This document shows, piece by piece, positions 806 to 5,142 of a stretch of DNA of 5,142 nt. The stretch's first letter is position 1, and each line of letters starts with the position of its first letter. A program made the position numbers and the translations under genes. Source of the stretch: a virus (taxonomy: Duplodnaviria; Heunggongvirae; Uroviricota; Caudoviricetes); the IMG/VR virus record IMGVR_UViG_2693429584_000012. One strand, given 5' to 3'. The notes under the pieces were generated by a model. The model was not told the origin of the DNA. It did no database searches and saw only the letters and a list, made by a program, of their open reading frames with translations.

Positions 806-1418
806 ACCAGCGCGAAGACGATGTAAAAACGATGAATGTCGGGAATGGTTTCACCCTGCATTCGCTAATCAGTGGTGGTGCTCTCCAGAGTGTGGAACCA
901 AGATAGCACTCGAACGACGAAGCAAAGAACGCGAAAAAGCGGAAAAGGCAGAAAAGGCAGCAGAGAAGAAACGACGACGAGAGGAGCAGAAACAGAACGA
1001 TAAACTTAAGATTCAAAAACTCGCCTTAAAGCCCCGCAGTTACTGGATTAAACAAGCCCAACAAGCCGTAAACGCCTTCATCAGAGAAAGAGACCGCGAC
1101 TTACCATGTATCTCGTGCGGAACGCTCACGTCTGCTCAGTGGGATGCCGGACATTACCGGACAACTGCTGCGGCACCTCAACTCCGATTTGATGAACGCA
1201 ATATTCACAAGCAATGCGTGGTGTGCAACCAGCACAAAAGCGGAAATCTCGTTCCGTATCGCGTCGAACTGATTAGCCGCATCGGGCAGGAAGCAGTAGA
1301 GGAAATCGAATCAAACCATAACCGCTATCGCTGGACTGTCGAAGAGTGCAGGGCCATCAAGGCGGAGTATCAACAGAAACTTAAAAAACTGCGAAACAGC
1401 AGAAGTGAGGTTGCATGA
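795..1418 (+). CDS. ninG: NinG (Rap-like recombination-associated protein, lambda Orf204 family)
   Basis: 207-aa ORF starting [52 protein letters not shown]..., near-identical to lambda NinG as recalled. GAGG at 785..788 precedes the ATG at 795. The start overlaps the ninF 3' end. Confidence 0.92.
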
Positions 1419-2080: not shown

Positions 2081-2700
2081 GACTCGAAAGCGTAGCTAAA
2101 TTTCATTCGCCAAAAAGCCCGATGATGAGCGACTCACCACGGGCTACGGCTTCTGACTCTCTTTCTGGTACTGATGTGATGGCTGCTATGGGGATGGCGC
2201 AATCACAAGCCGGATTCGGAATGGCTGCATTCTGCGGTAAGCATGAACTCAGCCAGAACGACAAACAAAAGGCTATCAACTATCTGATGCAATTTGCACA
2301 CAAGGTATCGGGGAAATACCGTGGTGTGGCAAAGCTCGAAGGAAATACTAAGGCAAAGGTACTGCAAGTGCTCGCAACATTCGCTTATGCGGATTATTGC
2401 CGTAGTGCCGCTACGCCGGGCGCAAGATGCAGAGATTGCCACGGTACAGGCCGTGCGGTTGATATAGCCAAAACAGAGCAGTGGGGGATAGTTGCTGAGA
2501 AAGAGTGCGGAAGATGTAAAGGCGTCGGTTATTCAAGAATGCCAGCAAGCGCCGCATATCGCGCTGTGACGATGCTAATCCCAAACCTTACCCAACCCAC
2601 CTGGTCACGCACTGTTAAGCCGCTGTATGACGCTCTGGTTGTGCAATGCCACAAGGAAGAGTCAATCGCAGACAACATTTTGAATGCGATCACACGTTAG
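2077..2700 (+). CDS. Q: Late gene antiterminator Q (lambda Q family)
   Basis: 207-aa [67 protein letters not shown]... with a CRDCHGTG...CGRCKGVG zinc-binding motif, essentially lambda Q as recalled. Its ATG overlaps the phosphatase stop (ATGA). Confidence 0.95.
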
Positions 2701-2742
2701 CGCCATGATTGCCACGGATGGCAACATATTAACGGCATAATA

Positions 2743-2790
2743 TTGACTTTTTGAATAACTTTGGGGAAACTTGACACCAATAATGGGCGT
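2743..2790 (+). promoter_or_regulatory. Late promoter pR' with overlapping qut (Q-utilisation) site
   Basis: About 40 bp after the Q stop: TTGACT (2743..2748), a 17-bp spacer TTTTGAATAACTTTGGG, then GAAACT (2766..2771). This aligns position by position with lambda pR' (TTGACT-TATTGAATAAAATTGGG-TAAATT) as recalled. It is followed by TGACACCAATAATGGG, containing a -10-like AATAAT in the position of the lambda sigma70 pause-inducing element. Confidence 0.6.
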
Positions 2791-2912
2791 TTTTTACATG
2801 TCATTGATGAGTCTCAATAACCTGCCGCCGAGTAGTTTTTATGCTCTGAATTGTATTTGTGTAGTAAACATGCTGACTGCAATGTAATAGAGTTTTTTTA
2901 GCCTGTAACCTC

Positions 2913-2962
2913 TTGACGGCATTGAATTGCTTTTGTTATGAGTTGTAAGCCAATGTTATCAT
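2913..2962 (+). promoter_or_regulatory. Candidate sigma70 promoter(s) of the cargo membrane-protein gene
   Basis: Option 1: TTGACG (2913..2918) with an extended -10 TGtTATGAG (2934..2942). Option 2: TTGTTA (2933..2938) with an extended -10 TGtTATCAT (2954..2962). Either would start transcription just upstream of the GGGGTGG Shine-Dalgarno and the ATG at 2980. Predicted by eye only. Confidence 0.35.
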
Positions 2963-2979
2963 CTTGTATTGGGGTGGTT

Positions 2980-3696
2980 ATGAAGGATGGTGCGCTGCTC
3001 AGGAGTTCTTCACTTTTTATTGCCTACATGGGATGCCTTGGATGGGGGAGTGCTTATTTCTATGGATGGGGTACTTCTTTTTACTACGGCTTCCCATGGT
3101 GGATTGTAGGTGCAGGTGTTGATGATGTTGCCAGAAGTTTATTTTTTGCAGTTATCGTCATTGCTATATTTCTTATCGGTTGGGGTATTGGTGTTGTATT
3201 CTTTTTCGCAGTGAAAAGAAAACATTCTATGCAAGAGCTAAATGTATTTCGCCTTTATTTTGCTGTGGAATTATTGTTTGTGCCGGCAATTATTGAGTTT
3301 TCTATATTGAGACAGAAGATTCAGGTACCTCTTTTGCTACTGTCAGCAGCGATTGCGCTGGCGGTTACAATTTCGATAAGATCTTATGGGCGATTTTTAT
3401 CGGTATCATGCTTCTATGATAAGCCATTTATAAAAAAACATTTTTTTGAGATTGTGATGATTGCTTTTGTGGCATATTTCTGGCTTTTTTCATTTCTGAC
3501 AGGATATTACAAACCACAGTTTAAGAAAGAATATGAAATGATTAATTATAATGATGGTTGGTATTATGTTCTTGCTCGTTATGATAATTGTCTGGTTTTG
3601 TCTACTTCTTTCAATGCAGGTAGTAAAAGGTTTGTCATTTATCAATCAGCACAAGATAAGAATCTTCAGGTTGATATTGTAAGGACCAGAATTTAA
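2980..3696 (+). CDS. Hypothetical polytopic inner-membrane protein (cargo/moron gene; about 4-5 predicted transmembrane segments plus a ~65-residue C-terminal soluble domain); function unknown
   Basis: Long ORF in frame 1 ending TAA 3694..3696. The preferred start is ATG 2980, preceded by GGGGTGG 3 nt upstream; the longest-ORF start is ATG 2938, which has no RBS and lies inside the predicted promoter. Hydrophobic stretches include SLFFAVIVIAIFLIGWGIGVVFFFAV, LYFAVELLFVPAIIEFSIL, VPLLLLSAAIALAVTISI and FFEIVMIAFVAYFWLFSFLTGYY. The gene is strongly AT-rich compared with the flanking phage genes. I recognise no homolog. Confidence 0.7.
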   Translation: MKDGALLRSSSLFIAYMGCLGWGSAYFYGWGTSFYYGFPWWIVGAGVDDVARSLFFAVIVIAIFLIGWGIGVVFFFAVKRKHSMQELNVFRLYFAVELLFVPAIIEFSILRQKIQVPLLLLSAAIALAVTISIRSYGRFLSVSCFYDKPFIKKHFFEIVMIAFVAYFWLFSFLTGYYKPQFKKEYEMINYNDGWYYVLARYDNCLVLSTSFNAGSKRFVIYQSAQDKNLQVDIVRTRI

Positions 3697-3829
3697 TTGG
3701 CTGCATAAATAATATTTTAAGTTGCAAGTTGGCTATTCGTAGGAATAGAACCTTAGGCATGCTGAATGCGTTTTCTGAACATTGTTTTATAAACTGTGTC
3801 TGCTTGCTGTTGTGATCCTGCTTTTAGTG

Positions 3830-3940
3830 ATGGTGATGATGGATTTCACCAGCAGGATAATGTTGGTACTGACTGATGGCGCTCTGGTCTGCGGCATTGT
3901 GGTATTGCTGTGGCCGATGATGAAAGAACAGAATGAATAA
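3830..3940 (+). CDS. Candidate small hydrophobic (single-TM) peptide, 26-36 aa depending on start; speculative
   Basis: Frame 2 ORF MVMMDFTSRIMLVLTDGALVCGIVVLLWPMMKEQNE ending TAA 3938..3940. Alternative starts are ATG 3836, 3839 or 3860. It has a hydrophobic core with a charged C-terminal tail. No convincing Shine-Dalgarno; it could be a chance ORF or a gene remnant. Confidence 0.2.
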   Translation: MVMMDFTSRIMLVLTDGALVCGIVVLLWPMMKEQNE

Positions 3941-3943
3941 TTC

Positions 3944-3972
3944 TTGACTTTTTTGTTTACTGTTTATTAAAA
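3944..3972 (+). promoter_or_regulatory. Promoter-like element sharing the ATAAT..TTGACTTTTT core with pR'
   Basis: TTGACT at 3944..3949 followed by a T-rich spacer and TATTAA/TTAAAA -10-like hexamers at 3965..3972. The -35 side resembles the pR' -35 region at 2737..2753. Weak -10; speculative. Confidence 0.25.
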
Positions 3973-4126
3973 AATCAACCGCATGGTGAATCCTCCTTGG
4001 AGGGGCTAAATGATCGAGTTTTAAGGGCACGTAGCGAGTTCTGTTTGATCATTGCAGAACTTAGCGGGAGGCGCCATGCGTACATCACTAATGTTATTTC
4101 CTTCTATCATTTTCCTTGTGAGTTCT

Positions 4127-4153
4127 GGCTGCGCATGGCGCGGCCTTTTTTTT
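4127..4153 (+). terminator. Rho-independent (intrinsic) terminator
   Basis: GGCTGCGC (4127..4134), loop ATG, GCGCGGCC (4138..4145) forms an 8-bp GC-rich stem with one U-G wobble, followed immediately by TTTTTTTT (4146..4153). It lies 87 nt upstream of the nanS-p start. Confidence 0.65.
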
Positions 4154-4239
4154 ATGACCTGCCACTGGCAGATGGTCATCCTGTGATTTGATTCCGCTTC
4201 CGGCTTTTTAACTCTGTTCCTCTACACGGGAGAAATTCG

Positions 4240-5142
4240 ATGTCGATTAAACATTACGATGTTGTCAGGGCGGCGTCGCCGTCAGACCTTGCGGAAAAGC
4301 TGACACACAAACTGAAAGAGGGCTGGCAGCCATACGGCGGATCGGTTGCCATTACGCCGTACACACTGATGCAGGCGGTGGCTATTGAAGGAGAGCCACA
4401 GGTCGGCCCTTCATCTGAGCCGGATTGGTACTACGTCATCGTACTGGCCGGGCAGTCCAATGCCATGGCTTACGGTGAAGGGCTTCCGCTGCCGGATTCA
4501 TACGATGCTCCGGATCCGCGCATTAAACAGCTGGCGCGCCGCAGTACAGTGACGCCGGGCGGGGCTGCCTGCAGATATAACGATATTATTCCGGCTGACC
4601 ACTGTCTGCATGATGTGCAGGATATGAGTACGCTGAATCATCCGAGGGCTGACCTGAGCAAAGGGCAGTACGGCTGTGTCGGCCAGGGTTTACATATTGC
4701 CAAAAAACTGCTCCCGTATATCCCGAATAACGCGGGGATCCTGCTGGTACCATGCTGTCGTGGTGGTTCGGCATTTACCCAGGGCGCGGAGGGGACATTC
4801 AGCGAGTCCACGGGGGCCAGTCAGGATTCGGCACGCTGGGGGGTGGGCAAGCCGTTATATCAGGATCTGATTTCCCGCACAAAAGCGGCATTGCAGAAAA
4901 ATCCCAAAAACGTTCTGCTGGCCGTCTGCTGGATGCAGGGTGAGTTTGACATGAGCGCCGCCACCCACGTACAGCAACCTGCGCTGTTTACAGCCATGCT
5001 GACACAGTTTCGTGCTGACCTCTCCGTGTTTAACGCGCAGTACCATGGTGGCAGTGCTGCAGATGTGCCGTGGGTTTGTGGTGACACGACGTATTACTGG
5101 AAAAATACATACGCTACCCAGTACGACACCGTGTACGGCGGG
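4240..5142 (+). CDS. nanS: Prophage-encoded sialate O-acetylesterase (NanS-p type; DUF1737-like N-terminal domain plus SASA/SGNH esterase domain), 5' partial; continues past window end
   Basis: ATG 4240 preceded by GGGAG at 4228..4232. Frame 1 is open for 301 codons to the window edge: MSIKHYDVVRAASPSDLAEKLTHKLKEGWQPYGGSVAITPYTLMQAVAIEGE...DWYYVIVLAGQSNAMAYGEG..., with the GQSN catalytic-serine block typical of SASA-family esterases. Missing from the ORF track only because there is no stop inside the window. Confidence 0.8.
   Translation, partial: MSIKHYDVVRAASPSDLAEKLTHKLKEGWQPYGGSVAITPYTLMQAVAIEGEPQVGPSSEPDWYYVIVLAGQSNAMAYGEGLPLPDSYDAPDPRIKQLARRSTVTPGGAACRYNDIIPADHCLHDVQDMSTLNHPRADLSKGQYGCVGQGLHIAKKLLPYIPNNAGILLVPCCRGGSAFTQGAEGTFSESTGASQDSARWGVGKPLYQDLISRTKAALQKNPKNVLLAVCWMQGEFDMSAATHVQQPALFTAMLTQFRADLSVFNAQYHGGSAADVPWVCGDTTYYWKNTYATQYDTVYGG

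What the first reader, a model, noticed from the sequence alone, without database searches (positions are those of the whole stretch)
3827..3940. GTGATG microrepeat followed by a small hydrophobic peptide ORF downstream of the membrane-protein gene
3827..3841 reads GTGATGGTGATGATG (a tandem hexamer run), which creates several in-frame ATG/GTG starts. It leads into an ORF encoding MVMMDFTSRIMLVLTDGALVCGIVVLLWPMMKEQNE: a single hydrophobic helix with a charged tail, the general shape of small membrane peptides and type I toxins. No terminator separates it from the upstream membrane-protein gene, so the two could be co-transcribed. It could also be a chance ORF or a remnant of a degraded gene. 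The repeat could act as a slippage-prone tract.
Basis: seen in the sequence. Interest (0 to 1): 0.4.

Follow-up and report, generated by a model that had tools for sequence, protein, structure and literature searches.

The report
Orphan TciB-like small membrane protein gene
The small hydrophobic ORF is a real, already-annotated phage gene of the DUF3927/TciB family that here has lost its usual TerB partner gene, and the GTGATG "repeat" is just five codons inside its first membrane helix.

Summary
The open frame starts at TTG 3782 and ends at TAA 3940. It encodes 52 aa with two hydrophobic segments. RefSeq annotates exactly this ORF as WP_000499454.1 "DUF3927 family protein", and the phage 434 genome calls it "TciB". 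It scores 53 bits on Pfam PF13064 (cut-off 25) and 63 bits on PHROG 1470 "TciB-like".

In P1, N4-like phages, other lambdoid phages and 12 of 12 other Enterobacterales loci, this gene starts on or next to the stop codon of a TerB-family gene (P1 tciA-tciB). Here TerB is absent. A 252-aa membrane-protein gene and an 85-nt spacer lie upstream instead. No candidate start has a Shine-Dalgarno sequence. Substitutions in this lineage look relaxed, although helix 1 has stayed strongly hydrophobic.

GTGATGGTGATGATG encodes V16-M20. It is no more than chance as a tandem repeat (1 seen, 1.2 expected) and is length-invariant in nearly all copies. Nothing supports a type I toxin.

The ORF's stop lies 3 nt before the -35 of the known Hfq-dependent sRNA PasD (3981-4153).

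Verdict: an ordinary, known family member. Its function is untested, and it may be decaying.

The parts
3782..3940 (+). tciB-like / DUF3927 ORF: TTG start, 52 codons, TAA stop. Product MFYKLCLLAVVILLLVMVMMDFTSRIMLVLTDGALVCGIVVLLWPMMKEQNE
   Evidence: ORF list. RefSeq CDS WP_000499454.1 'DUF3927 family protein' at the same position in E2348/69 and strain 2014C-3061. Phage 434 CDS 'TciB'. Pfam PF13064 53 bits, PHROG 1470 63 bits. Gapless alignment with P1 TciB and others from residue 1.
3827..3841 (+). GTGATGGTGATGATG = codons 16-20 (V M V M M), the end of hydrophobic segment 1. Not a significant tandem repeat.
   Evidence: Homologues have LVVMV, SVLV or VVAI at the same columns.
3794..3841 (+).
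   Evidence: Kyte-Doolittle 11-residue means up to 3.7. Conserved as a hydrophobic helix in all family members, with dN/dS 0.16-0.35 among TerB-linked members.
3842..3856 (+). D21-F-T-S-R25, the family's invariant DFT motif between the two hydrophobic segments
   Evidence: Invariant D21 F22 T23 in alignment A2.
3857..3916 (+). Hydrophobic segment 2 (residues 26-44) with conserved L30, D32-G33, L35 and W44-P45, followed by the polar tail MMKEQNE
   Evidence: Core dN/dS 0.23-0.29 against the E. coli TerB-linked paralogue.
3697..3781 (.). 85-nt AT-rich spacer between the upstream gene and the ORF. No SD, no terminator, and no similarity to terB 3' ends.
2938..3696 (+). Upstream AT-rich (36% GC) multi-pass membrane-protein gene (PHROG 1521, function unknown). 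The likely real start is ATG 2980 (SD -6.4 kcal/mol); RefSeq uses 2953. It occupies the place held by terB in other family loci.
2933..2962 (+). Sigma-70 promoter-like site (TTGTTA-18-TATCAT with TG) that could drive the membrane-protein gene plus the ORF as a lysogen-expressed moron
   Evidence: Consensus scan only. RNA-seq levels in the EPEC lysogen are higher than Q and the lysis genes. This is an inference.
3944..3973 (+). Probable PasD promoter: -35 TTGACT (3944-3949) starts 3 nt after the ORF's stop; -10 TAAAAA (3968-3973); TSS G3981
   Evidence: Read from the sequence against the published PasD2 5' end (PMC8550237 Table S6). This is an inference.
3981..4153 (+). PasD sRNA (173 nt, Hfq-dependent, STnc100-related) with an intrinsic terminator at 4127-4153. 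It forms the 3' boundary of any transcript through the ORF.
   Evidence: Identical to E2348/69 PasD2 except for one inserted T. Northern probe site at 4113-4136. Rfam STnc100 37.7 bits, below the gathering score of 47. Terminator scan.

Best explanation
The ORF is the tciB-like (DUF3927) gene of a lambdoid prophage. It runs from TTG 3782 to TAA 3940 and encodes a 52-aa protein. The layout is a short N-terminus with one positive charge (K4), hydrophobic segment 1, the DFTSR motif, hydrophobic segment 2 ending in WP, and a polar tail. This is most likely an inner-membrane helical hairpin.

Elsewhere, the family gene sits immediately after a TerB-family gene (P1 tciA-tciB) and is translationally coupled to it, often in the slot between the Q antiterminator and the lysis genes. 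By inference, TciB is the small membrane partner or anchor of the cytoplasmic TerB-like protein. That module is credited, by homology only, with tolerance to membrane-damaging agents such as colicins, tellurite and phage.

In this prophage lineage (also phage 434, 2B8, and EPEC/STEC prophages) recombination replaced terB and everything upstream of the start codon. A 252-aa membrane-protein gene plus an 85-nt spacer now lie there. The tciB reading frame stayed intact, but it lost the coupled start and the SD.

I think it is still transcribed with the upstream gene as a moron, and by Q-antiterminated late transcription. It is probably translated only weakly from TTG 3782, and it evolves under relaxed constraint.

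The GTGATG tract is simply codons 16-20 of helix 1.

What is shown: family membership, the homologous start position, the TerB linkage elsewhere and its absence here, the missing SD, and low-level transcription in EPEC.

What is inferred: the hairpin topology, the TerB-anchor role, co-transcription, and weak translation.

My estimates: TciB homologue 0.95; 52-aa product made from 3782 about 0.55; untranslated relic about 0.3; internal start about 0.15.
For: Family membership:
- Pfam PF13064 at 53 bits (cut-off 25), covering residues 7-50.
- PHROG 1470 'TciB-like' at 63 bits.
- RefSeq and phage 434 annotate the same 159-nt CDS.

Start position:
- Gapless alignment from residue 1 with P1 TciB, Pollock, TR2, LMessi and Klebsiella phage proteins. 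M1, K4, L14, D21, F22, T23, L30, D32, L35, W44 and P45 are invariant.

TerB linkage elsewhere:
- A TerB gene (PF05099) ends on or next to the tciB start in P1, Pollock, TR2, LMessi and the Klebsiella phage.
- The same holds in the E. coli MTVK-class prophage copies, which have a GTGA overlap and GGAG 8 nt upstream.
- It also holds in 12 of 12 other Enterobacterales loci.

Selection on the N-terminal helix:
- It is under purifying selection among TerB-linked members, with dN/dS 0.16-0.35.
- The window's helix 1 kept its hydrophobicity despite 21 of 57 nucleotide changes. Only 3.8% of random substitution sets stay stop-free and without polar or Pro residues, and 0.1% reach the observed hydropathy.

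Recombination boundary:
- DNA homology to the TerB-linked paralogue begins inside the ORF at about 3805-3812 and continues through the PasD promoter.

Expression and prevalence:
- EPEC RNA-seq BaseMean is 36.7 for this CDS, 226 for the upstream gene, 69 for Q and 3.5 for the holin (PMC8550237 Table S2).
- There is no terminator between the two genes.
- The locus is present in 690 of 5,426 complete E. coli genomes. An intact CDS is annotated in all 50 sampled records.
Against: - No candidate start has an SD. The anti-SD duplex energy is +0.4 kcal/mol at TTG 3782 and at best -3.9 at ATG 3839, with too short a spacing. Neighbouring genes score -5.9 to -8.6 and the TerB-linked paralogue -6.4.
- TTG is a weak start codon.
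- The N-terminal 19 codons differ from the nearest paralogue with dN/dS of about 1.1-1.4 and no third-position excess (8/6/7). The conserved R6 is replaced by C.
- Within the window class, one common allele differs by 5 nonsynonymous and 0-1 synonymous codon changes, including L5P.
- AlphaFold2 gives one continuous helix (residues 2-51, pLDDT 85), not a hairpin.
- There is no experimental function for any family member. P1 tciB is dispensable for P1 plaque formation in a CRISPRi screen (PMC10695390). The 'Tci' name comes only from TciA's similarity to TerB (P1 record notes).
- No TerB-TciB fusions exist to support physical interaction.
Confidence: 0.8

Rival explanations
1. Untranslated relic. 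The tciB frame is a leftover of a TerB-TciB module. It persists because the block from mid-ORF through the PasD promoter and 5' stem is carried along as one recombination unit. The ORF's 3' end abuts the sRNA promoter, and no protein is made.
For: - TerB, the coupled start and the SD are all lost.
- Substitution pattern is neutral-like in the N-terminal part and within the window class.
- High DNA identity to paralogues runs continuously from about 3812 across the stop codon into the PasD promoter and 5' stem.
- PasD is about 300-fold more abundant than the ORF transcript.
- Related alleles carry in-frame duplications in helix 2 and stop-loss read-through forms.
Against: - The frame is intact in every copy examined: 81 IMG/VR loci, 50 of 50 sampled E. 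coli genomes, and alleles L181-L185.
- Helix 1 hydrophobicity is retained far beyond the neutral expectation.
- The core has dN/dS of 0.23-0.29.
- Most copies are at least 99% identical, so an intact frame is weak evidence either way.
Confidence: 0.3
2. One reading: translation starts inside the ATG/GTG cluster (3827-3839). This would give a single-helix peptide of 33-37 aa that acts on its own.
For: - ATG is a stronger start codon than TTG.
- GGUGA at 3832-3836 pairs weakly with the anti-SD (-3.9 kcal/mol for ATG 3839).
- The N-terminal codons show no amino-acid-level constraint in this lineage.
- The 36-aa fragment still contains the conserved core (51 bits on PF13064).
Against: - The SD-like GGUGA ends 2 nt before ATG 3839, which is too close. 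The other internal starts have no SD.
- Every homologue starts 19-20 residues before DFT, and no family member is a single-helix form.
- Helix 1 hydrophobicity is maintained.
Confidence: 0.15
3. Type I toxin-antitoxin toxin, or another self-standing membrane-depolarising toxin or holin-like peptide.
For: It is small and hydrophobic with a charged tail, sits in a prophage, and lies near the lysis region.
Against: - No antisense RNA family hit and no antisense promoter-like site over the ORF.
- The only adjacent sRNA, PasD, is on the same strand, downstream and trans-acting.
- No homology to Hok, Ldr, TisB, Ibs, Zor or holin families; the only hit is DUF3927.
- The family is coupled to TerB, not to an antitoxin RNA.
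- Related loci have their own class II holin downstream.
- No PADLOC hit.
Confidence: 0.03
4. Slippage-prone contingency tract: changes in GTGATG repeat number switch the ORF or its start codons on and off.
For: Rare in-frame length variants exist at this spot: VMVMMMMDF (P0011) and VVMVVMVDF (P0062).
Against: - Only 2.5 units, no more than chance, and not found by Tandem Repeats Finder.
- Identical tract in all 81 window-class IMG/VR loci. Gapless over the full 221 nt in 49 of 50 sampled E. coli genomes.
- The variants seen are multiples of 3 nt, so they do not switch the frame.
Confidence: 0.02

Closest known systems
Bacteriophage P1 TciB (P1_gp075, YP_006541.1), Pfam DUF3927 (PF13064), PHROG 1470
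   Same: - Same length class (52 against 54 aa), with gapless alignment from residue 1.
- Same K4, hydrophobic helix, DFT, LxDG, hydrophobic helix, WPxxK layout, at 42% identity.
- Both are phage accessory genes of untested function.
   Different: - P1 tciB overlaps the stop of tciA (TerB-like) and is followed by tciC.
- The window copy has no TerB gene upstream, a TTG start, no SD, and C instead of the conserved R at position 6.
Phage 434 CPT_434_69 'TciB' and E. coli RefSeq WP_000499454.1 'DUF3927 family protein' (for example E2348C_0687 in EPEC E2348/69)
   Same: - The same gene: identical or 98% identical protein.
- Same neighbours: Q, 247-252-aa membrane protein, this ORF, PasD, SASA/NanS-like esterase.
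   Different: Only the flanks differ. 434 and E2348/69 carry a Q82-like Q gene and lpxR, whereas the window carries a different Q type.
TerB-linked tciB paralogues in E. coli lambdoid prophages (MTVKLRL... class, for example L148)
   Same: - 60% identical protein.
- DNA is highly similar from mid-ORF through the downstream sRNA promoter and again before the esterase gene.
- Also followed by an STnc100-family sRNA.
   Different: - The paralogues start with a GTG overlapping the terB stop (GTGA), with GGAG upstream.
- Their downstream sRNA is a canonical STnc100 (94-105 bits) rather than PasD-type (38-40 bits).
Type I toxins (Hok/Gef, Ldr, TisB, Ibs, Zor)
   Same: Small hydrophobic membrane peptide encoded on a mobile element.
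   Different: No sequence homology, no antisense RNA partner, two hydrophobic segments, and a family context coupled to a TerB protein gene.

Membership tests
DUF3927 / TciB-like (Pfam PF13064, PHROG 1470) | Profile HMM score above the curated threshold | tested here: met
   PF13064 at 53 bits against a cut-off of 25, E 3.4e-14. PHROG 1470 at 63.4 bits, E 2.5e-17.
DUF3927 / TciB-like (Pfam PF13064, PHROG 1470) | About 50-55 aa, 19-20 residues before an invariant DFT motif, then LxDG and WP motifs, and two hydrophobic segments | tested here: met
   Gapless alignment A2 with invariant M1 K4 L14 D21 F22 T23 L30 D32 L35 W44 P45. Hydropathy profile. 75 representative clusters, nearly all 45-65 aa.
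DUF3927 / TciB-like (Pfam PF13064, PHROG 1470) | Typical context (not part of the Pfam definition): start codon overlaps or abuts the stop of a TerB-family gene | tested here: not met
   The context is present in P1, Pollock, TR2, LMessi, the Klebsiella phage, E. coli MTVK-class copies and 12 of 12 other Enterobacterales loci. In the window the upstream gene is a 252-aa membrane protein with no TerB domain, 85 nt away.
DUF3927 / TciB-like (Pfam PF13064, PHROG 1470) | [quoted passage not shown] | not testable with these tools
   The name is by homology of the neighbouring TciA to TerB (P1 record notes). P1 tciB is non-essential in a CRISPRi screen (PMC10695390).
Type I toxin-antitoxin toxin | Antisense or overlapping RNA antitoxin | tested here: not met
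   No Sok-like or other antisense family in the Rfam E-value scan of the window. No minus-strand promoter-like site over 3782-3940. The EPEC RIL-seq/RNA-seq annotation lists only PasD2, on the same strand downstream.
Type I toxin-antitoxin toxin | Homology to a known toxin family | tested here: not met
   The only Pfam hit is DUF3927. No PADLOC hit.
Type I toxin-antitoxin toxin | Toxicity on expression | not testable with these tools
   Needs inducible expression.
Simple-sequence contingency (slippage) locus | Repeat tract longer than chance, with length variation among close strains that shifts the frame | tested here: not met
   2.5 units, with 1 run seen against 1.2 expected, and Tandem Repeats Finder silent. 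No length variation in 81 IMG/VR loci. Gapless full-length matches in 49 of 50 sampled genomes. The rare variants are in-frame.
Class II holin | Holin family profile match and position at the head of the lysis cassette | tested here: not met
   No holin Pfam hit. Related loci carry a separate PF04971 holin downstream of the esterase.

The most novel reading that the evidence does not exclude
The orphan TciB may not be a relic. It could have been re-partnered with the AT-rich 252-aa membrane protein that replaced TerB. The two would form a lysogen-expressed two-gene membrane moron, for example for superinfection exclusion or colicin/envelope-stress tolerance. Its transcript would run into, and share a terminator with, the virulence-linked sRNA PasD. 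More broadly, TciB-family hairpins would then be the membrane-active component of phage TerB modules.
Probability: 0.15. Interest if true: 0.45.

Novelty: already known. Interest (0 to 1): 0.2.

Why it matters
The practical value is a corrected annotation. The product is a 52-aa protein with two hydrophobic segments, of the TciB/DUF3927 family. It is not a 36-aa single-helix peptide or a toxin.

The family itself is small and unstudied. There are only 75 clusters at 50% identity among 1.84 billion representative proteins, no solved structure and no tested function. It is tightly coupled to TerB-like genes in very different phages.

The orphan copy sits in about 13% of complete E. coli genomes, mainly EPEC and STEC. 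It lies directly against the promoter of the Hfq-dependent sRNA PasD. Its transcription and its 3' end are therefore relevant to anyone mapping PasD/STnc100 expression.

Nothing here is surprising to a phage specialist.

Tried and rejected
- AlphaFold2 on an 18-sequence alignment gave a single 50-residue helix (pLDDT 85). This does not settle the topology, so no fold search was run.
- A PDB sequence search with the family profile found nothing.
- A PADLOC scan of the ORF, the upstream protein, a TerB partner and P1 TciB found no meaningful hit.
- I searched 1.84 billion representative proteins for TerB-TciB fusions. The few long hits (P0086, P0117, P0127, P0130) are gene-calling read-throughs in other frames, not fusions.
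- NCBIfam gave only a sub-threshold hit to 'podovir_small' (16 bits against a cut-off of 32), which I rejected.
- The P1 genome paper (PMC523184) is not held, so the origin of the Tci name rests on the GenBank notes and my own recollection.
- A literature search for 'tciB' returned only unrelated uses. 'DUF3927' appears in 2 papers, neither about function.
- A precomputed Pfam label 'PF27470:TfpB' for the upstream protein could not be verified. The local Pfam copy has no hit and the literature use of 'TfpB' is ambiguous.
- The first IMG/VR scan returned 80 near-identical copies that were useless for dN/dS. A second scan with an alignment was needed.
- Pairwise dN/dS rests on 19 and 27 codons and is therefore noisy.

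Full report
**Setting.** The window is the late-regulatory region of an E. coli lambdoid prophage. The gene order is as follows.

| Coordinates | Feature |
|---|---|
| 1 to about 119 | end of an IS3-family element |
| 241-459 | 72-aa ORF read as the 3' part of ninB |
| 396-638 | 80-aa ORF read as ninE |
| 593-805 | 70-aa ORF read as ninF |
| 795-1418 | ninG |
| 1415-2080 | Ser/Thr phosphatase |
| 2077-2700 | Q antiterminator (PF03589) |
| 2938-3696 | AT-rich 252-aa membrane-protein gene |
| 3782-3940 | the small ORF |
| 3981-4153 | an sRNA (PasD) |
| from 4240 | DUF1737 + SASA (NanS-like) esterase |

The ninB, ninE and ninF labels for 241-805 are my reading from gene order in a closely related genome; I did not test those three ORFs individually.

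The best full-length matches are STEC and bovine E. coli chromosomes at 99.2% identity.

**Checking the observation.** Positions 3827-3841 read GTGATGGTGATGATG.

No terminator-like site lies between the upstream gene and the ORF. The only one in 2600-4400 is at 4127-4155.

Two points need correcting.
- The frame is open from the TGA at 3776-3778. The first start codon is TTG 3782, which gives 52 aa.
- As a tandem repeat the tract is unremarkable. One period-6 run of at least 12 nt is seen, against 1.2 +/- 1.1 in simulated sequences. Tandem Repeats Finder does not report it at score 30.

**What it is.** The 52-aa product matches Pfam DUF3927 (PF13064) at 53 bits against a cut-off of 25, over residues 7-50. 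It matches PHROG 1470, [quoted passage not shown], at 63 bits.

RefSeq annotates exactly this 159-nt CDS, TTG start included, as WP_000499454.1 "DUF3927 family protein". This holds in EPEC E2348/69 and in the genome closest to the window. The curated phage 434 genome calls the same gene "TciB".

The segment is present in 690 of 5,426 complete E. coli genomes, almost always at 99% identity or more. An intact DUF3927 CDS was annotated in all 50 records sampled across the ranking.

**Where the protein starts.** I aligned the window protein with seven other sequences:
- P1 TciB
- two N4-like phage proteins (Pollock, Salmonella TR2)
- phage LMessi
- an unannotated Klebsiella phage ORF
- E. coli paralogues

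The alignment is gapless from residue 1. Every member has 19-20 residues, forming a hydrophobic helix with K4, before an invariant DFT motif. The LxDG and WP motifs are also conserved.

TTG 3782 is therefore at the exact homologous position of the ATG/GTG starts elsewhere. The GTGATG tract encodes V16-M20, the end of helix 1. It is not a cluster of alternative start codons.

Among TerB-linked members the N-terminal helix is clearly under purifying selection. One pair shows 12.5 synonymous against 1.5 nonsynonymous differences, and dN/dS ranges from 0.16 to 0.35.

**The conserved partner, and its absence here.** In the following loci the tciB start overlaps or abuts the stop codon of a TerB-family gene (GTGA, TAATG, TGATG, or TAA-ATG).
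- P1, Pollock, TR2, LMessi and the Klebsiella phage
- the E. coli MTVKLRL-class prophage copies
- 12 of 12 loci from other Enterobacterales genera

PF05099 (TerB) was confirmed for three representative partners. This is the classic signature of translational coupling. In the E. coli paralogue there is also a GGAG 8 nt upstream.

The window copy is the exception.
- Upstream lies a 252-aa multi-pass membrane protein with no TerB domain (PHROG 1521, function unknown), then an 85-nt AT-rich spacer.
- DNA homology to the TerB-linked paralogue begins only at about 3805-3812, inside the ORF.
- It then runs at high identity across the stop codon and the downstream sRNA promoter.

The first 16 codons are still recognisably homologous. 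By hand count on the sequences they are about 58% identical without gaps.

**Is it still expressed and constrained?** The evidence points both ways.

Against:
- No candidate start has a Shine-Dalgarno sequence. The anti-SD duplex energy is +0.4 kcal/mol at TTG 3782 and at best -3.9 at ATG 3839, where the spacing is too short. Neighbouring genes score -5.9 to -8.6 and the TerB-linked paralogue -6.4.
- Codons 2-20 differ from the paralogue with dN/dS of about 1.1-1.4 and no third-position excess. The conserved R6 is C here.
- A common allele within the window class differs by 5 nonsynonymous and 0-1 synonymous codon changes.

For:
- The frame is intact in every copy seen.
- The core has dN/dS of 0.23-0.29.
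- Helix 1 kept its hydrophobicity despite 21 of 57 nucleotide changes. Only 3.8% of random substitution sets stay free of stops and of polar or Pro residues. Only 0.1% reach the observed hydropathy.
- In published EPEC RNA-seq, per-nucleotide levels are similar for the CDS (BaseMean 36.7 over 159 nt) and the upstream gene (226 over 717 nt).
- Both lie above Q (69 over 690 nt) and far above the holin (3.5) (PMC8550237 Table S2).

That pattern fits a lysogen-expressed moron, possibly driven from the promoter-like site at 2933-2962.

**Mechanism.** No member of this family has a tested function. P1 tciB is dispensable in a CRISPRi essentiality screen (PMC10695390). The "Tci" name derives from TciA's similarity to TerB.

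From the anatomy I infer a small inner-membrane hairpin that partners the cytoplasmic TerB-like protein. Hydropathy shows two hydrophobic segments. AlphaFold2 returned one long helix, which does not decide the topology.

No fusions, solved structures or defence-system matches were found to sharpen this.

For the orphan copy I favour weak translation of the 52-aa form as part of a transcript shared with the upstream membrane-protein gene. A hitchhiking relic is the main rival.

**Rivals rejected.**
- Type I toxin. There is no antisense RNA and no antisense promoter. There is no homology to toxin families. The only nearby sRNA is on the same strand, downstream and trans-acting.
- Slippage switch. 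The tract is invariant in 81 IMG/VR loci. Best matches are gapless over the full 221 nt in 49 of 50 sampled genomes. The rare variants (+6 and +9 nt) are in-frame.
- Holin. There is no profile match, and related loci carry their own class II holin.

**Neighbouring sRNA.** Window 3981-4153 is PasD. It is identical to E2348/69 PasD2 except for one inserted T, which makes it 173 nt like PasD1. The published Northern probe site is at 4113-4136, and the terminator is at 4127-4153.

Rfam scores it as a sub-threshold STnc100 at 37.7 bits against a gathering score of 47. This agrees with the recent proposal that PasD and STnc100 share an ancestor (bioRxiv 10.64898/2026.05.13.724894).

The likely -35 (TTGACT, 3944-3949) starts 3 nt after the ORF's stop codon. 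TerB-linked tciB paralogues in E. coli are followed at the same spot by canonical STnc100 at 94-105 bits.

**Verdict.** The finding is a real gene, but an ordinary and already-annotated one. The useful corrections concern the start codon, the second hydrophobic segment, the TerB-module ancestry and the lack of any repeat-driven or toxin behaviour.

Noticed in passing
window 3981-4153 (+), promoter about 3944-3973: This is the Hfq-dependent sRNA PasD (EHEC homologue EcOnc13). It is identical to E2348/69 PasD2 except for one extra T. Rfam sees it only as a sub-threshold STnc100 (37.7 bits against 47). Its -35 starts 3 nt after the DUF3927 stop codon.
   Followed up: yes
L148 1622-1799, L139 1619-1791, L084 1673-1839, L183 1373-1545; window 3812-3995 and 4125-4240: In E. 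coli prophages tciB is regularly followed, about 11 nt after its stop, by an STnc100-family sRNA. The tciB 3' two-thirds, the sRNA promoter and the 5' stem form one conserved DNA block. The sRNA's central part is swapped (PasD-type against STnc100-type). No such sRNA was found after tciB in the other Enterobacterales loci or in phages LMessi and Klebsiella 5 LV-2017.
   Followed up: partly
proteins P0048, P0066, P0071, P0072, P0068, P0045, P0041: E. albertii and some E. coli alleles carry in-frame tandem duplications inside or next to helix 2: EAGGWRL x2-3, CGIVGLWD x3, LLWP x2. Others are stop-loss forms that read on into the sRNA region (84 aa). This suggests decay or unusual indel activity in this small gene.
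   Followed up: no
window 2933-3696: The upstream membrane-protein gene is very AT-rich (36% GC, against 51-57% for Q and the esterase), which marks it as a foreign moron. ATG 2980 has the only good SD (-6.4 kcal/mol) and lies just downstream of an extended -10 promoter-like site (2933-2962). The 252-aa (ATG 2938) and RefSeq 247-aa (ATG 2953) starts are therefore probably too long. A precomputed label 'PF27470:TfpB' could not be verified.
   Followed up: partly
window 3997-4191 (+) and about 4021-4262 (-): Phage 434 annotates a 62-aa 'putative membrane protein' on the plus strand, and RefSeq annotates a frameshifted pseudo-CDS on the minus strand. Both lie over the PasD sRNA and its terminator and are probably spurious calls. 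The minus-strand ORF 3824-4030 ends in HHHHH only because it reads the GTGATG tract backwards.
   Followed up: no
window 1 to about 119: The left end of the window is the terminus of an IS3-family insertion sequence (minus-strand transposase start MTKNTRFSPEV...). It is present in 3,553 of 5,426 E. coli genomes. The closest relatives of this prophage have an intact NinB and an extra N6-adenine methyltransferase gene here instead.
   Followed up: partly
window 933-960: A 9-bp tandem repeat, GAAAAGGCA x3.1, lies inside ninG and encodes (EKA)n in a charged linker. It is one of only two tandem repeats that TRF reports in the window.
   Followed up: no
L168 (JAIITD010000172.1, 'MAG: Veillonella sp.'): A 3-kb contig binned as Veillonella carries this E. 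coli prophage segment with the identical ORF. This is almost certainly a binning contaminant.
   Followed up: no
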